DNA of 64,000 nt, from the NCBI RefSeq assembly GCF_009914755.1, contig NC_060939.1, one strand, 5' to 3'. Numbering within the stretch: position 1 is the stretch's first letter; every line of letters starts with the position of its first letter. This DNA comes from the human T2T-CHM13v2.0 reference genome, Homo sapiens. The position numbers and the translations under genes are program-made. This document shows, piece by piece, positions 4,651 through 63,740 of the stretch. The notes under the pieces were generated by a model, which did no database searches, was not told the origin of the DNA, and worked only from the letters and a program-made list of their open reading frames with translations.

Positions 4651-5269
4651 TGCCCTATCTGATATTTGACCATAGCGTCTCCCCTGTGTGAAACTCTTCA
4701 GTAATTTTTTTCCCTTTATAATAGGGACAAGGCCACTCTCCTTTTTAGGTACACAAGGTTTTGGATCACTTATATCTAAATCTAGCCCCCCTAAGACCAC
4801 CCAGTGTCTGCAGGTCCCCACAGGAAGAGTCATGCACACTTATGGACTACCCAGGGGCATCTTCAGCTGATGGGGCCTTAATGTCACCCAGGACTCCCTG
4901 TTCTGGGGGAATTCTCAAAGGTAGATGCAGGGCTCCAGGAGCTGTTTTCAAATTTTCTAAAAAACATAATAGGTATTAAAACCTAATAGGTATTATATAT
5001 TTTCCTTCAACAAAGCCTAGTAGTAAAGCTCACAGCAGGGTCCTGTACTTATCTCTAATGTATCACGTCATTTTCTTGCTTGTCTCCCGCAAAGGGGTGT
5101 GAGCTCCTTGCAGTTGGAAACCATGCATTTGACTGATTTCACTTTTTAAAAAAATATCCTCAATGCCTGGCACATAATGATCCTTAAATGATGTCTGATG
5201 AATAAGTGGCCACTGGATGAATGAAACAAATAAATGTGATACTACACTGTTTCCATTGCATACGTCGCT

Positions 5270-5509
5270 GTATATATATATATACGTATATATATACATA
5301 TATATGTATATATATATACGTATATATATGTGTGTATATATGTGTATATATATACACGTATATATGTGTGTATATATGTGTATATATATACACGTATATA
5401 TGTGTGTATATATGTGTATATATACAAGTATATATGTGTATATATACACGTATATATGTGTGTATATATGTGTATATATATACACGTATATATGTGTGTA
5501 TATATATAT
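5270..5509. repeat. Compound (TA/TG/CA) microsatellite with a 36-bp higher-order unit
   Basis: Unit cacgtatatatgtgtgtatatatgtgtatatatata; cacg starts at 5355 and 5391. Confidence 0.95.
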
Positions 5510-5752
5510 CTTAGATTAATCAAAATGTGAAGGCAAATTCATTGGTAGTAAACATAAATTATTTTGAAGGAAATATCACTCCAAACAAATGAAAAAAATA
5601 ACGAAAATGGTGCTAGGGAAGAAAGAGGCTGGGATCCTTAGATAATGCACAGATATGTGTGTCCCCACACGTGGCCTAAGAAGCTCTAATCTCCCCCAGA
5701 GGAAGCTGGACCCTGGGGACACAGCCTGCTTCTAAGCCACCAGCTCCTAAGG

Positions 5753-20321: not shown

Positions 20322-20790
<469 letters not shown>

Positions 20791-20797
20791 GGTTTTA

Positions 20798-21334
<537 letters not shown>

Positions 21335-21679
21335 CTCTAGACAAAGCCGAGAGGAGGAGGGATTACAGCAAAGAGCTGTGGGAGCTGAAGGACTAGCCTT
21401 CTCCCACAGCAGTCCAAAGCTCAGGCCTGGGAGGGCTCAGGGTGGCTAGATTTCAGCCTAGGTGCAGAAGCCACTCTGAGTTTCCAGCTAGCAACTGGGC
21501 CAGGGCTCAGGCTGAAGCTGCCCATCTGGACACTGAGAAAAGATGAAACGTGTTTTGCAGCGTGTTGTACTTCCATGAAGCCACCTCCTGCTCCTGAGTG
21601 GTACCTGAGAATACATGAGGGACAGAGAGATAAGGATGCAGTGCGGGTCCGTGGCCATCACAGCAGGATGGGGCTGGGA

Positions 21680-21890
21680 GCACTGTTACTGAACATGTAA
21701 TAAGTGCCAGGCACTGTTGCAAGCACAGCACATATTGGGTTCATTTTACTCTCTACACCAACAATTTTACCTTTTGTATAGATAAGGCCCAGAGAGGTTA
21801 AGAAACTTGCCTGAAATCACATAGCTTGTGAGTGATAGAGCTGTGATTTAAATTCTAGAACTCTGGCTACAGAGCCTTCGCTCTTGACTA
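21680..21890 (-). mobile_element. MIR SINE
   Basis: aggcccagagaggttaagaaacttgcctgaaatcacatagc is the antisense MIR core. Confidence 0.75.
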
Positions 21891-21969
21891 AATGCTAAAA
21901 TTATCAAGGGGGTGGTCTGTCTGGCTTGGAAGTGGTTACAGAAGAAATGTCTAGGCCCTCTGGCATCCC

Positions 21970-22637
21970 AAGGGGCCAGCAGCTGCCTGAGCATTGTTAA
22001 GGGAAATCTCAAAAAGGTTAGGCGAGAGAACTTCTCTCTGCCCTGAGTCCTATGGTGTGTTGTTGGAGTGAAATGGAATCTCTCATCCCATGGTTATCTC
22101 CCTCCCCAACTCTCCACTGTTCTCCTCCGGGACCCTTTTCACAACTTGGAGATAGATGGTCAGGTGAGGCTGGAGTGGACTCGTGCCTAACAAGGGCTGG
22201 GGCCAGCGTACTGGAGAAGCACTCCACCACTAGTGGAGTGGACCCTTCAGCATGATTTTCAGAGTGCTTACGCCACTTGCTCTAATGAGATAGCAGATCC
22301 TGGTAGAGACTGGTTCAGGACCAAGGCCGTCATCACATCATTAGGGTAAGAGGCCTGAGAGGCTGAGCCAAGAGCTAGTGTAGCCTCTTCTCCTGCTCCT
22401 CCACTACAGTGGCTCCAGCCCTTGTTAGATACGAGTCCACGGCAGCCTCAGCCGACTCTCTCCAAGCTGCAAAAAGGATCAAGGAGGAGGAAGGTGGGTC
22501 AGACAGGGTGATAACTATGGGGCAGGAGATTCCATTTCTCCCCAACAGCACACCATAGGACACAGGGAAGAGAGAGGTTATCTTGCCTGGCCTCTTTGGA
22601 CCTCCCTTAAGAGTGCTCAGGCAGCTGCTGGCCCTTT
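21970..22637. repeat. Long imperfect inverted repeat in non-Alu sequence (arms 21970-22221 and 22394-22637)
   Basis: Manual alignment gives ~80% identity between the left arm and the reverse complement of the right arm. Three ungapped blocks of 35, 36 and 31 nt each have 3 mismatches. Confidence 0.95.
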
Positions 22638-23344
22638 AAATGGAGCCAGCTCCCACTGGGCACTCTTAAAGCTCACTTCATTCATGAATTAAGTCCCTGA
22701 CATCTCGTATCGGTATGATCAATATGTTTGTTTATTAGCAGCAGCTGCTGTGTTTTAGCGAAGGCGGTGAGCCCCCGTGAGAGGGCCGTCGGGTAACCAC
22801 AGAGCAGGGCCTGGGACAAGGAGGAGAAAGTCCTCCTGCCGGCAAATGGGAGCTGGGGCTGGATAGGGTTTCATGGTAATGGTCCTTTAATCGAAATAAC
22901 CGGTTCAGTAGGACTGTTTGGTAGGGAGCTGTGCTGATGGCTCCTGGCTGGGTCCCCACTTTAAGAGATCCATTAACTGGTGGCTGTGCTCCCAGCTGCT
23001 GGCCTATGCAACCACCAGCAGCGTGGGGGAAGCCGAGCTGCGAGGGTGGCCGCTGCAGGCCATGCTGAAGGGAGGGGGCCTTGAGTTGGCCGCTGTCAGG
23101 ATGTTAAGACCACGTAGCCTTCTGGCCTGGTCCCAAACCCAAGCTCGGCCCTCCTGTCCCCATTCTGGGTTCATTTTGCCTCAGTGACTCAGGAACCTCA
23201 TTCCTAGGCTGACTTATGTTTTCCAGAAGAGGAAAGGACTCATCACTTTCCAGTTCTGATATCTCCTCTGCATTGATGATTCAGGGTCTTGCCTCTCGTC
23301 CATTTGTCATGCTGGAGGTCCAGGGAATGATCCACAAAATCACT

Positions 23345-23560
23345 ACTTCATTCATCCATGCATGCATGCATGCATTTGGGAAACATTTAATGAGTAACTT
23401 CTATATGCCAGGCTCCATGCTGGCTACTGGAAACACAAAGATAAAGGAATGCAGGCATGCCCTGGGGGGATTTCAAGTCTTGTGGGGATAAAACCATGCA
23501 AACATTGACAATACCAGAAAATAGTAGCTGGATTGGGAAAATGTGTGATGTACTACGGCA
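23345..23560 (-). mobile_element. L2 3' end
   Basis: ttcattcatccatgcatg...aaacatttaatgagtaacttctatatgccagg is an antisense L2 tail. Confidence 0.7.
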
Positions 23561-23745
23561 GGTGAAACTCCTAAGTTGGGATGATGGAATGCAGGGAGCT
23601 GGCACTGGACCTGAGAGACTCTCCAGTAAATCTACAGGGCCATAAGGCTATTCCATTTCTCCCAGGTCCCCCATTACAGGCTAGACTGGCAGATCTCTTC
23701 TGTATTCCATAACATGTGCTGTGTGCTGCAGCCGGGCAGACTATG

Positions 23746-23953
23746 CAGTGGTCTTCAGCCGGGGGTGATTTGCCCCCCAGGGACATTTAGTAATGTCTAG
23801 AGACATTTTTTTATTGTAACATTTTTATGGTGGAGCAGATACCACTGGCATCTAGTAGTAAGAGGCTAGACATCCAACAATGCACAGGACAGCCCCCAAC
23901 AACAAAGAATGATCTGGACCAATATATCAACAATGCCAAAATTGAGGAACCTA
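23746..23953 (+). mobile_element. MER20 hAT MITE
   Basis: cagtgg...gggggtgatttgccccccagggacattt...caatgcacaggacagccccc...ttgaggaacc. Confidence 0.85.
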
Positions 23954-35851: not shown

Positions 35852-36209
<358 letters not shown>

Positions 36210-37810: not shown

Positions 37811-38234
37811 TTAATTTGGATAAAATGGAAAACTTCTATTTCAAAAAAAGAAAAGAAAAGGGGCAGACCCAAAGAGCTGATTCCTGGAGGCTGTTCTCAC
37901 ACAATAAGGTTTCAAGAAAGATATTTGTCTGCCCTGTGCTGACCCCACTGGCCCAGAGGAACTGAGCCTGCATTGCATTTTCCCACCACACTGCACAGAG
38001 TTCATTCCAGGCTTCCTGTTCATAGGTGTTCTCACTGCATGCACCTGGCTGCCTGACACTGCTTGAGCACAGTGGGAGGGATGGGGTGGGGTGGACTTGC
38101 TTCTGTAAAGGACTAAGAAGAGCCTGGAGGGACGCAATGAGCAATCCCTGAGGGCTGGGAGGCATTAGACACACTGCCAGTGAGAAGGACGCTGGGTTCT
38201 TCCCTTCTTTTTCCCTTTTAATAGCCTCCAGTTC

Positions 38235-38590: not shown

Positions 38591-38870
38591 CTGGGACTGC
38601 CTATTTTCAAGGTCTCAACCCCTGTCCTTGCCTCACAAACCTCATTTAGAGTTGAAGAATCGCTAAATCAGAGATATTGTTCTGACCCTCGCTGCCTAGC
38701 TGGAGGGTCTTCCAAGAAACCTGCATTCTCATCCACTGCTGATGGAAGTAGAAAATGATACAATCTTGCCGTTGAGCCATTTGGCAAGAAGTGTTTGACC
38801 TTCATGTCCACCTCTAAGAATTCATTCAGGAATGTGGTTTGATGGTTAATTTTTTGCTTTTATTATTATT

Positions 38871-39151
38871 ATTATTTTGACACAGGGTCCCACTCTATTG
38901 CCCAGGCTGGAGTGCAGTGGCATGATCTCAGCTCCCTGCAACCTCTGCCTCCTGGGCTCAGGTGATCCTCAGCCTCCCAAGTAGCTGAGAGTACAGGAGT
39001 TCATCACCACGCCCAGCTAATTTTTGTATTTTTTGTAGAGATGGATTTTTGCCATGTTGCCCAGACTGGTCTCGAACTCCTGGACTCAAGCGGTCTGCCC
39101 ACCTCAGCCTCCCAAAGTGCTGGGATTATAGGCGTGAGCTACCTCGACCAG
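38871..39151 (-). mobile_element. AluJ/S SINE
   Basis: Antisense Alu with a (TTA)n tail; TSD gctttta(t/c)tattatt at 38856-38870 and 39152-39166. Confidence 0.93.
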
Positions 39152-44874: not shown

Positions 44875-45225
<351 letters not shown>

Positions 45226-46526: not shown

Positions 46527-46819
46527 GGCTGAGCATGGTGGCTCCTGCCTGTAATCCCAGCACTGAGAGGCCGAGGCAGGTGCATAACCTGAGGTCAGGA
46601 GTTCAAGACCAGCCTGGCCACATGGCAAAACCCCATCGCTACTAAAAAAATACAAAAATTAGCTGGGTGAGGTGGTGGGTACCTGTAATCCCAGCTACTT
46701 GGGAGGTTGAGGCAGGGAGAACTGCTTGAACCCAGGAGGTGGAGGCTGCAGTGAGCTGAGATTGCGCCACTGCACTCCAGCCTGAACGACAGAGTGAGAC
46801 TCTGTCCCAAAAAATAAAA
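46527..46819 (+). mobile_element. AluSx SINE in an L2 tail
   Basis: Full dimer; TSD taaaataggt(g) on both sides. Confidence 0.95.
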
Positions 46820-47308
46820 TAAAATAGGTGCTGAGTGAACGAATGAATGAACAGTTCAGCAACAGCACCTTCAGCATATTCTGCCGTTTAGGTCACTGAG
46901 CTATGTCCCAGATCTCTCCTGAATGAGTATCTGGCTGATAGGTAGCCCATCTGGATGCGGATCTTGCAGTGCTCTGCTCTAGTTTTTGTGTTTGTCCTTT
47001 TTCCTCCTCTCTTGCTGAGTATCATGGACGGTGTATGCACAGCGCATTGCAAGTTAAGTGCTTTGTCCTTCTGAACCACACCTCCTTTTGGAAAACTCAC
47101 AGCACATAGAGCAACAGGCATTATTTTTCTCAGCACTTTCAATCTTTCAATTCCATACAATTCTCTTCTTTCAATTCCATAACAATTGCACACCTTTTAT
47201 TTCAGCAATTTAAAACGTTCACTGCGTTTGTATTCACTGGATACAATGAAATTAATGTTTGCAAAATACCTTGGAACTAAATAGAACCCCAGCAAGATTG
47301 CCACTAAG

Positions 47309-63569: not shown

Positions 63570-63740
63570 TGGAGGCAGACAGACCTGGTTTGGACTCCTG
63601 GTTCCAGCCTCTGCTTGCCCTGTGGCCTTCACAGCCTCTCTGAAGCCATTTCTTCCCGCCTGTAAAAGAGGAAAATAACCTGTAGAGCAGCTGTGAGAAT
63701 TCAGTGAGAGATTGGGGCTGAAGAGTCACTCAATGAAATA
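63570..63740 (+). mobile_element. MIR SINE
   Basis: tttggaggcagacagacctggtttggactcctggttc...cctctctgaagccatttcttcccgcctgtaaaa. Confidence 0.7.

What the first reader, a model, noticed from the sequence alone, without database searches (positions are those of the whole stretch)
21970..22637. Long non-Alu inverted repeat able to form a ~700-nt RNA hairpin or DNA cruciform
Seen: 21970-22221 is the reverse complement of 22394-22637 at ~80% identity by manual alignment, around a ~170-nt spacer. Three ungapped stems each carry only 3 mismatches: 21970-22004/22603-22637 (35 nt), 22047-22082/22526-22561 (36 nt) and 22175-22205/22410-22440 (31 nt). Pairing can be extended outward (gaagtg 21929-34 / cacttc 22674-79; tgtctag/ctgggca) and inward (cactag 22228-33 / ctagtg 22375-80). 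The ORF track echoes the symmetry, with VDS-LTRAGA-V-E in both 22052..22255(+) and 22375..22563(-). I recognise no Alu, L1, L2, MIR or MER sequence here, and no obvious terminal inverted repeat or TSD. Established: long imperfect duplexes are ADAR and Dicer substrates. Inference: this is either a structured ncRNA or editing/endo-siRNA hairpin, or an ancient fold-back duplication or unannotated palindromic element. Transition mismatches do not clearly favour one strand for G-U pairing (~13 vs ~17 by hand), so the transcribed strand cannot be inferred.
Basis: partly seen in the sequence, partly recalled or inferred. Interest (0 to 1): 0.8.

Follow-up and report, generated by a model that had tools for sequence, protein, structure and literature searches.

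The report
Old single-copy inverted duplication, decaying
This is a real 668-base inverted repeat found nowhere else in the human genome, most likely an old local fold-back duplication that is drifting apart, with no sign so far that it works as an RNA.

Summary
Bases 21970-22221 are the reverse complement of 22394-22637, with 198 matches, 46 mismatches and 8 gap columns. That is 81% identity without gaps and 78.6% with them, around a 172-nt spacer. Either strand folds far better than shuffles (z -18.8 to -22.9).

It is not a transposon family. Whole-genome searches of T2T-CHM13 with the whole repeat, each arm and the spacer found only the locus itself and the opposite arm. The same tool found 951 and 63 candidates for two old dispersed repeats next door. 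I saw no target-site duplication. There was no Rfam hit above threshold and no Pfam hit.

The arm differences look neutral:
- 31 transitions against 15-16 transversions.
- G:U-compatible mismatches number 14 on the + strand and 17 on the - strand (p 0.72).
- Mismatches are evenly spread, and the longest perfect run of 21 nt is as expected.

Best reading: a local inverted duplication of unique sequence, tens of millions of years old, decaying neutrally. It would form imperfect dsRNA only if transcribed, and no transcript is annotated over it. No orthologues, expression data or editing data could be reached, so a functional hairpin is unsupported but not excluded. Interest is low.

The parts
21970..22221 (+). 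Left arm of the inverted repeat (252 nt)
   Evidence: Aligns to the reverse complement of 22394-22637 with 198 matches, 46 mismatches and 8 gap columns. In the whole genome it matches only itself and the right arm.
22222..22393 (.). Spacer or loop (172 nt), mostly non-symmetric and unique in the genome
   Evidence: A genome search finds only itself. Its two halves share one weak symmetric stretch.
22267..22288 (+). Weak inner remnant of symmetry, left half
   Evidence: 17 of 22 positions match the reverse complement of 22338-22359. z 3.9, and 0 of 500 shuffles scored as well. It lies about 5 nt off the axis of the arms.
22338..22359 (-). Weak inner remnant of symmetry, right half
   Evidence: Partner of 22267-22288.
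22394..22637 (-). Right arm of the inverted repeat (244 nt)
   Evidence: Reverse complement of the left arm. In the whole genome it matches only itself and the left arm.

Best explanation
This is a locus-specific inverted (fold-back) duplication. About 250 bp of ordinary unique intergenic sequence was copied once, in reverse orientation, roughly 170 bp from its source. A replication template switch or snap-back repair of a break is the likely cause; the mechanism is inferred, not shown. The two copies have since diverged by ordinary neutral substitution and small indels to 81% identity.

The divergence is 0.228 substitutions per site between the arms, or about 0.11 per arm. Using recalled primate neutral rates of about 1.5-2.2e-9 per site per year, that puts the event at roughly 50-75 million years ago, or earlier if the arms exchanged sequence by gene conversion.

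Today the repeat is a passive structure. With a 172-nt spacer and 19% mismatches it is a poor cruciform former in duplex DNA. It falls below the >85% identity criterion quoted for recombinogenic long inverted repeats. If read-through transcription crosses it on either strand, it would fold into an imperfect duplex of about 250 bp that ADAR could edit. That would be a by-product and not a selected function.
For: Shown:
- The inverted repeat is real and has sharp outer ends.
- It is single-locus. Genome-wide DNA searches with 21900-22700, the left arm, the spacer and the right arm, at E up to 10, returned only self and opposite-arm matches. The first-look stage picked up the 78%-identical opposite arm as its own candidate, so the search reaches that identity.
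- Positive controls with the same tool worked. An old dispersed repeat at 23738-23950 gave 951 candidates; 40 were scored and all matched, one being the query itself and 39 other loci at 70-88% identity. The old SINE-like element at 21735-21905 gave 63 candidates; 40 were scored and all matched, one being the query itself.
- The decay pattern looks neutral. There are 31 transitions against 15-16 transversions. Three aligned CpG sites read TpG or CpA in the other arm, and only one CpG is shared. CpG observed/expected in the arms is 0.21-0.23, against 0.18 for the window.
- Mismatches are evenly spread, with a bin variance of 2.6 against a mean of 3.9. The longest perfect run is 21 nt, where the expectation is 19.9 +/- 4.9 (P 0.38). 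There are no long identical tracts of the kind recent gene conversion or strong constraint would leave.
- G:U-compatible mismatches number 14 on the + strand and 17 on the - strand, out of 31 transitions (binomial p 0.72).
- Nothing in Rfam reaches threshold inside the repeat. None of 7 open frames has a Pfam match at E up to 1.

From the hub's gene table: no exon, transcript or RefSeq functional element overlaps 21970-22637. The nearest annotated exon ends at 20909.
Against: No orthologous sequence from any other species could be examined. The date, the direction of the duplication (which arm is the source) and the absence of compensatory changes are therefore all untested.

No Dfam or RepeatMasker run was possible. 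A family whose members are too diverged for BLAST, below about 65-70% pairwise identity, cannot be formally excluded.

The spacer shows one symmetric 22-nt stretch above chance. The original structure may therefore have been a fuller palindrome whose centre was later rearranged, not a duplication with a built-in spacer.

An exact third copy of the 12-mer at both arm termini lies 356 nt to the right and is not explained by a single duplication.

A neutral-looking mismatch pattern in one genome is weak evidence. A hairpin selected only for being roughly double-stranded could look the same.
Confidence: 0.66

Rival explanations
1. The repeat is the relic of a palindromic non-autonomous DNA transposon (a MITE-like element of about 670 bp). 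Its two halves were complementary when it inserted.
For: The overall shape fits: long complementary halves, a short central non-symmetric part, and sharp outer ends. Old DNA-transposon relics do occur nearby, for example 23738-23950.
Against: The arms are only about 0.11 substitutions per site from their common ancestor. A family of that age should leave many copies about 78% identical to each other. The genome search finds none, although it detects the 78%-identical opposite arm and families at 70-74% identity (against 21, 38). The flanks show no target-site duplication: CTGGCATCCC on the left and AAATGGAGCC on the right (read). By recall, the termini resemble no hAT, Tc1/mariner or piggyBac terminal repeat.
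Confidence: 0.1
2. The repeat is a functional long hairpin RNA locus. It is transcribed, for example as read-through from the lncRNA LOC105370958, which ends 1,061 nt upstream. The duplex is then kept by selection as an ADAR substrate, an endo-siRNA precursor or a protein-binding structure.
For: Both strands fold into a continuous hairpin. The + strand RNA has MFE -456.7 kcal/mol against -293.5 for shuffles, and the - strand -415.8 against -249.5. Pairing is 81% Watson-Crick and 86-88% with G:U, with runs up to 21-26 bp. These values lie between the medians a human dsRNA catalogue reports for edited and unedited predicted dsRNAs (passages of PMC11838218). The arms are much better kept than the spacer.
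Against: There is no strand preference for wobble-compatible changes, 14 against 17. Mismatches are spread evenly, as expected for drift. No Rfam family matches. No annotated transcript or functional element covers it (hub table). The arms match no other place in the genome, so there is no candidate target of the kind classical hairpin-siRNA loci have. The dsRNA catalogue reports that over 99% of predicted human dsRNAs are not conserved and that most non-repetitive ones are unedited. The high fold z-scores follow automatically from any inverted repeat.
Confidence: 0.08
3. The inverted repeat is much older than its 19% arm divergence suggests. Occasional gene conversion between the arms has kept them similar, as happens in larger palindromes.
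For: The arms are far more similar to each other than the halves of the spacer are. Conversion within inverted repeats is an established process (general knowledge).
Against: There are no long identical tracts. The longest perfect run, 21 nt, is what random placement of 47 mismatches gives (P 0.38), and mismatch density is even. Arms of 250 bp at 81% identity are poor substrates for homologous exchange.
Confidence: 0.08
4. The repeat is two independent insertions of the same interspersed repeat in opposite orientation, like the inverted Alu pairs elsewhere in the window.
For: This is the usual origin of inverted repeats of this size. The window holds two Alu-sized inverted pairs, at 35862-36152/38859-39143 and 44928-45213/46539-46823.
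Against: Neither arm matches anything else in the genome, whereas old repeats next door give tens to hundreds of candidates.
Confidence: 0.02

Closest known systems
Long inverted repeats (LIRs) or inverted duplicates of non-repetitive sequence, as catalogued by Inverted Repeats Finder, Lirex and dsRNAscan
   Same: It has two adjacent reverse-complementary copies of unique sequence with a short spacer. Arm length (about 250 bp), identity (about 80%) and spacer (172 nt) fall within the ranges quoted for human LIRs: stem identity 70-100%, stems 24-973 bp and spacers 0-2,435 bp (passages of PMC4319165). A preprint predicts roughly half a million dsRNA-forming pairs in non-repetitive human sequence (PMC11838218, Table 1 as shown).
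   Different: It is longer than the typical non-repetitive case, whose medians are 75 bp (unedited) and 144 bp (edited) in PMC11838218. It falls below the >85% identity quoted from Wang and Leung for recombinogenic LIRs. I could not check whether this locus is listed in any catalogue, because bioRxiv supplements are closed.
Inverted Alu pairs (IR-Alus), the main human ADAR substrates
   Same: Arm length, arm identity and hairpin energy are similar. If transcribed, it would be handled in the same way.
   Different: The arms are not Alu or any other dispersed repeat. The two copies arose from each other and not from two separate insertions.
Palindromic MITEs and non-autonomous DNA transposons (MER-type elements)
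   Same: It has a fold-back architecture with sharp ends.
   Different: It has no other copies, no target-site duplication and no recognisable terminal repeat (and by eye).
Hairpin-RNA (hpRNA) or endo-siRNA loci of flies and mouse oocytes
   Same: It is a long inverted duplication that would give an intramolecular duplex of several hundred bp.
   Different: Those loci are transcribed and nearly perfectly paired, and they derive from a target gene found elsewhere in the genome (general knowledge; PMC10317233 seen as abstract only). Here pairing is 81%, no transcript is annotated and no related sequence exists elsewhere.

Membership tests
Local inverted (fold-back) duplication / long inverted repeat of unique sequence | Two nearby segments that are reverse complements far beyond chance | tested here: met
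   198 of 244 aligned positions are identical. E was 9e-52 in the window and 2.4e-49 genome-wide.
Local inverted (fold-back) duplication / long inverted repeat of unique sequence | Arms are otherwise unique in the genome | tested here: met
   Searches returned only self and opposite-arm matches. The controls show the search detects old repeat families.
Local inverted (fold-back) duplication / long inverted repeat of unique sequence | Outgroup species carry a single copy (the source arm) at the orthologous site | not testable with these tools
   No other eukaryotic genome is held (one search states that the genome has no relatives here).
Recombinogenic LIR (criteria of Wang and Leung as quoted in PMC4319165) | Stem >30 bp, stem identity >85%, spacer <2 kb | tested here: not met
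   The stem (about 250 bp) and spacer (172 nt) qualify. Identity is 81% without gaps and 78.6% with them, which is below 85%. The criteria were read in passages.
Palindromic non-autonomous DNA transposon (MITE) | Multiple dispersed copies in the genome | tested here: not met
   No other copies were found at E up to 10, although the search is sensitive to 70% identity.
Palindromic non-autonomous DNA transposon (MITE) | Target-site duplication flanking the terminal inverted repeats | tested here: not met
   The flanks are CTGGCATCCC and AAATGGAGCC, with no shared 2-8-mer at the junctions (read). The outer flanks show no similarity beyond chance.
Palindromic non-autonomous DNA transposon (MITE) | Match to a curated consensus (Dfam/Repbase) | not testable with these tools
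Inverted pair of interspersed repeats (such as IR-Alu) | Each arm belongs to a dispersed repeat family | tested here: not met
   Searches found no match outside the locus.
Known structured RNA family (Rfam, including miRNA precursors) | Covariance-model score at or above the family's gathering threshold | tested here: not met
   The best hit touching the repeat is mir-980 at 22602-22674(-), with 20.1 bits against a gathering score of 47 and E 0.45.
hpRNA / endo-siRNA hairpin locus | Arms homologous to a target gene elsewhere in the genome | tested here: not met
   Searches found no other match. None of 7 open frames has a Pfam match.
hpRNA / endo-siRNA hairpin locus | Transcription across the hairpin and 21-23-nt small RNAs from the stem | not testable with these tools
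   No expression or small-RNA data are held. The hub table lists no transcript over 21970-22637.
Selected RNA duplex (ADAR or protein-binding structure) | Compensatory changes or strand-biased wobble tolerance | tested here: inconclusive
   In this one genome the G:U-compatible mismatches number 14 (+) and 17 (-), p 0.72, so there is no bias. Covariation needs orthologues, which are not available.

The most novel reading that the evidence does not exclude
The repeat could be a primate-lineage long hairpin RNA made from non-repetitive sequence upstream of NTRK3. It would be transcribed by read-through from LOC105370958 or from an unannotated start in the CpG-richer patch just to its right. It would then be kept double-stranded enough to serve as a dedicated ADAR or Dicer substrate, or as a regulatory dsRNA in neurons. 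The clustered CAGCAGCTG motifs at both arm tips and twice more within 370 nt would be part of its control region.
Probability: 0.05. Interest if true: 0.55.

Novelty: new member of a known kind. Interest (0 to 1): 0.13.

Why it matters
As it stands, it matters little. It is one more old inverted duplication of unique sequence, a class already catalogued in large numbers in the human genome.

It has two modest uses. It is a clean non-Alu example for asking whether intergenic unique-sequence hairpins are ever transcribed and edited. Its arm divergence also gives a built-in clock for local neutral decay.

If orthologues showed constraint or covariation, it would become a rare case of a conserved long dsRNA made from non-repeat sequence next to a neurodevelopmental gene.

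Tried and rejected
- Profile search of the genome. I used plain DNA queries instead, so relatives below BLAST range remain untested.
- The R1 profile run over the 64-kb window with filters off gave 65 matches at E up to 10. Apart from the two arms, all score 12.3 bits or less, and the alignments I viewed have low posterior probability (37903-38116 at E 0.003, 63598-63724 at E 0.028, and others). I read these as compositional noise and not as family members.
- A possible third partial copy of the arm terminus lies at 22953-23005(-). It scores 6.2 bits with E 0.22, and its Smith-Waterman score of 13 equals background hits elsewhere in the window. An exact 12-mer is shared. This is left unresolved.
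- A direct partial copy at 22642-22669 scored z 1.45, and 68 of 500 shuffles did as well. Rejected as chance.
- Outward extension of the pairing is rejected. RNAfold does pair the flanks in its best structure, but no better than chance.
- Coding origin: 7 of the 15 open frames of at least 50 aa listed in 21900-23200 went to Pfam and none matched. I chose the 7 longest, namely the five that lie in the arms and the two in the right-flank patch.
- The bacterial-type promoter and terminator scan has no bearing on a human locus and is disregarded.
- Literature: four searches turned up nothing on this locus. The NTRK3-AS1 search listed 10 of 11 papers, seen as titles and abstract starts only, and none concerns an inverted repeat.

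Full report
**What is there**

The sequence holds an inverted repeat at exactly the coordinates given. The repeat finder reports three collinear inverted blocks:
- 21970-22004 / 22603-22637 (35 nt, 91%)
- 22010-22126 / 22482-22598 (117 nt, 76%)
- 22154-22221 / 22394-22461 (68 nt, 81%)

A gapped local alignment joins them into one pair of arms, 21970-22221 against the reverse complement of 22394-22637. It has 198 matches, 46 mismatches and 8 gap columns in 4 indels, which is 81.1% identity without gaps and 78.6% with them. MAFFT gives the same picture with 47 mismatches. The spacer is 172 nt (22222-22393). Chance is excluded: E was 9e-52 in the window and 2.4e-49 in the 3.1-Gb genome.

**Limits of the repeat**

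The outer flanks (120 nt each side) do not pair better than chance: z is -0.65, and 442 of 500 shuffles scored as well. The flanks (CTGGCATCCC on the left, AAATGGAGCC on the right) share no target-site duplication.

Inside the spacer, one 22-nt stretch (22267-22288) matches the reverse complement of 22338-22359 at 17 of 22 positions (z 3.9, 0 of 500 shuffles). It lies nearly on the same axis as the arms. The rest of the spacer is not symmetric. Either the spacer was there from the start, or a fuller palindrome had its centre rearranged later. I cannot tell which.

**Folding**

As RNA, the + strand of 21900-22700 folds at -456.7 kcal/mol against -293.5 +/- 8.7 for shuffles (z -18.8). The - strand of 21960-22647 folds at -415.8 against -249.5 (z -22.9). 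As single-stranded DNA the figure is -209.9 against -107.3 (z -21.7). These values follow from the repeat itself and add no independent evidence of function.

Pairing is 81% Watson-Crick, rising to 86.5% (+) and 87.7% (-) with G:U. The longest uninterrupted helices are 21 bp (Watson-Crick), 26 bp (+ with G:U) and 22 bp (- with G:U).

**Copy number**

The window's own assembly (T2T-CHM13 according to the hub; chr15:86,077,970-86,078,637) could be searched. The queries were the whole element with flanks, the left arm, the spacer and the right arm. The last three were run at E up to 10. All returned only the query itself and, for the arms, the opposite arm at 78% identity.

The tool warns that it skips very common words and scores only the best candidates, so I ran controls. 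The first-look stage found the 78%-identical opposite arm as a separate candidate. An old dispersed repeat 1.1 kb to the right (23738-23950; a MER5-like hAT relic by my recall) gave 951 candidates. Forty were scored and all matched: the query itself and 39 other loci at 70-88% identity. The old SINE-like element just left of the repeat (21735-21905; MIR by recall) gave 63 candidates, and all 40 scored matched, one of them the query itself.

The search therefore sees families far older than the arm-to-arm divergence, and the arms and spacer belong to none of them. This rules out an inverted pair of interspersed repeats. It also makes a transposon family of the age implied by the arm divergence very unlikely.

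**Other negative tests**

- Rfam, run with permissive E-values over 21000-23600, gave 4 matches. Two lie in the Alu at about 21020-21170 (SRP and mir-3135), and both are below their gathering scores.
- A third match is mir-980, at 20.1 bits against a gathering score of 47 (E 0.45). It sits on a small hairpin at the right edge of the repeat.
- The fourth is snoU89, at 12.8 bits and outside the repeat. None of the four is credible.
- Seven of the 15 open frames of at least 50 aa in 21900-23200 were scanned against Pfam at E up to 1, with no match.
- A sequence-only profile of the two arms (R1), run over the whole window with filters off, found only low-scoring hits of 12.3 bits or less apart from the arms, and the alignments I viewed have low posterior probability.

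**Pattern of differences between the arms**

Of the 46-47 mismatches, 31 are transitions and 15-16 are transversions. The Kimura distance is 0.228 between the arms, or 0.114 per arm. Three aligned CpG sites read TpG or CpA in the other arm, and only one CpG is shared. CpG observed/expected in the arms is 0.21-0.23, near the window's 0.18.

A transition leaves a G:U on one transcript strand and an A:C on the other. The split is 14 (+) against 17 (-), with binomial p 0.72, so neither strand has been favoured. Mismatches are evenly spread over 12 bins of 21 nt (mean 3.9, variance 2.6). The longest perfect run of 21 nt is what random placement of 47 mismatches gives (mean 19.9, P(>=21) 0.38).

There is thus no sign of conversion tracts, of protected sub-helices or of RNA-level selection. 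This is the limit of what one genome can show.

**Interpretation**

The best-supported reading is a single local inverted duplication of unique sequence, followed by neutral decay. The formation mechanism (a replication template switch, or snap-back synthesis at a break) is inferred from general knowledge of how such structures arise. It is not shown.

With recalled neutral rates for the primate lineage (about 1.5-2.2e-9 per site per year), 0.114 per arm gives roughly 50-75 million years. As an in-window yardstick, the arm identity (78-81%) is similar to that between pairs of Alu-sized repeats in the same window (72-79%). Both estimates are rough, and any gene conversion would make the event older.

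**Consequences today**

By the criteria quoted from Wang and Leung (stem >30 bp, identity >85%, spacer <2 kb; passages of PMC4319165), the repeat misses the identity threshold. The abstract of PMC10164571 (search listing) states that distance and divergence between the arms lower the ability of inverted repeats to cause rearrangements. Cruciform extrusion across a 172-nt spacer with 19% mismatch is therefore unlikely (inference).

As RNA it would form a long imperfect duplex, but no annotated transcript covers it. The hub table places the last exon of LOC105370958 at 20826-20909 and lists no functional element.

A preprint that scanned the human genome for dsRNA-forming pairs predicts 5,134,754 such structures. 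About 497,000 of them lie in non-repetitive sequence, and only 4,597 of those are edited. Over 99% of all predictions have low conservation scores (passages and tables of PMC11838218).

This locus is longer than the typical non-repetitive case, for which the medians are 75 bp (unedited) and 144 bp (edited). Its pairing percentage and contiguous helix length lie between the medians reported for edited and unedited structures. It belongs to a known and mostly inert class. I could not see that preprint's supplementary tables, which may list this locus.

**What remains open**

No orthologous sequence, repeat library, expression data, editing data or small-RNA data could be reached. The functional-hairpin reading is therefore unsupported but not refuted, and I put it at about 8%.

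One loose end is the 9-mer CAGCAGCTG. It occurs 5 times in the 64-kb window, all within 21977-23001, where shuffles give 1.19 on average and 3 of 100 shuffles reach 5. The 12-mer GGCCAGCAGCTG at both arm tips recurs exactly at 22993-23004 on the minus strand (3 matches at up to 1 mismatch, 0 of 100 shuffles reaching 3). Longer similarity around that third site is no better than background. I cannot say whether it is a fragment of a further duplication, a recurring protein-binding motif or chance.

**Verdict**

The locus is an ordinary member of a known class, and its interest is low.

Noticed in passing
window 21977-23001: All 5 window matches to CAGCAGCTG fall in this 1-kb stretch, at 21977, 22622(-), 22739, 22742(-) and 22993(-). 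Shuffles give 1.19 on average. The exact 12-mer GGCCAGCAGCTG at both arm tips recurs at 22993-23004(-). The motif contains a CAGCTG E-box (recalled). It could be a fragment of a further duplication, a motif cluster or chance.
   Followed up: partly
window 22600-23200: The patch just right of the repeat is GC-rich (up to 62%) and retains CpG, with observed/expected 0.36-0.54 against 0.18 for the window and 7 CpGs in each of two 200-nt bins. The two longest open frames there (122 aa and 91 aa) have no Pfam match. It could be a weakly hypomethylated or constrained element upstream of NTRK3.
   Followed up: partly
window 23738-23950: Relic of an old dispersed repeat, a MER5-like hAT MITE by recall. 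It gave 951 genome candidates; 40 were scored and all matched: the query itself and 39 other loci at 70-88% identity. It served as a positive control.
   Followed up: yes
window 21735-21905: Old SINE-like element, MIR in reverse orientation by recall, directly left of the repeat. It gave 63 genome candidates; 40 were scored and all matched, one being the query itself.
   Followed up: yes
window 22607-22620 / 22656-22669: A small 14-nt hairpin (93% complementary, 35-nt loop) straddles the right edge of the repeat. Rfam's mir-980 model touches it at only 20.1 bits against a gathering score of 47. I read it as noise.
   Followed up: yes
window 5260-5510: A simple repeat rich in TA, TG and CA dinucleotides, about 250 nt long and self-complementary. 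It shows up as a palindromic self-hit in the inverted-repeat census.
   Followed up: partly
window 35862-36152 / 38859-39143 and 44928-45213 / 46539-46823: Two Alu-sized inverted pairs, at 78.8% and 74.7% identity with spacers of 2,706 and 1,325 nt. Apart from the simple repeat at 5260-5510, which pairs with itself, they are the only other inverted pairs with aligned arms of at least 100 nt and a spacer of 3 kb or less in the window. Both overlap stretches the hub lists as masked repeats.
   Followed up: no
window 20385-20680 / 20875-21178: Two direct Alu-like copies, 72% identical. Rfam SRP and mir-3135 hits, both below threshold, lie in the second copy. The last annotated exon of LOC105370958 (20826-20909) ends inside it, by the hub table.
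   Followed up: no
window 23349-23372: A short (CATG)n-like microsatellite, seen in the sequence read.
   Followed up: no
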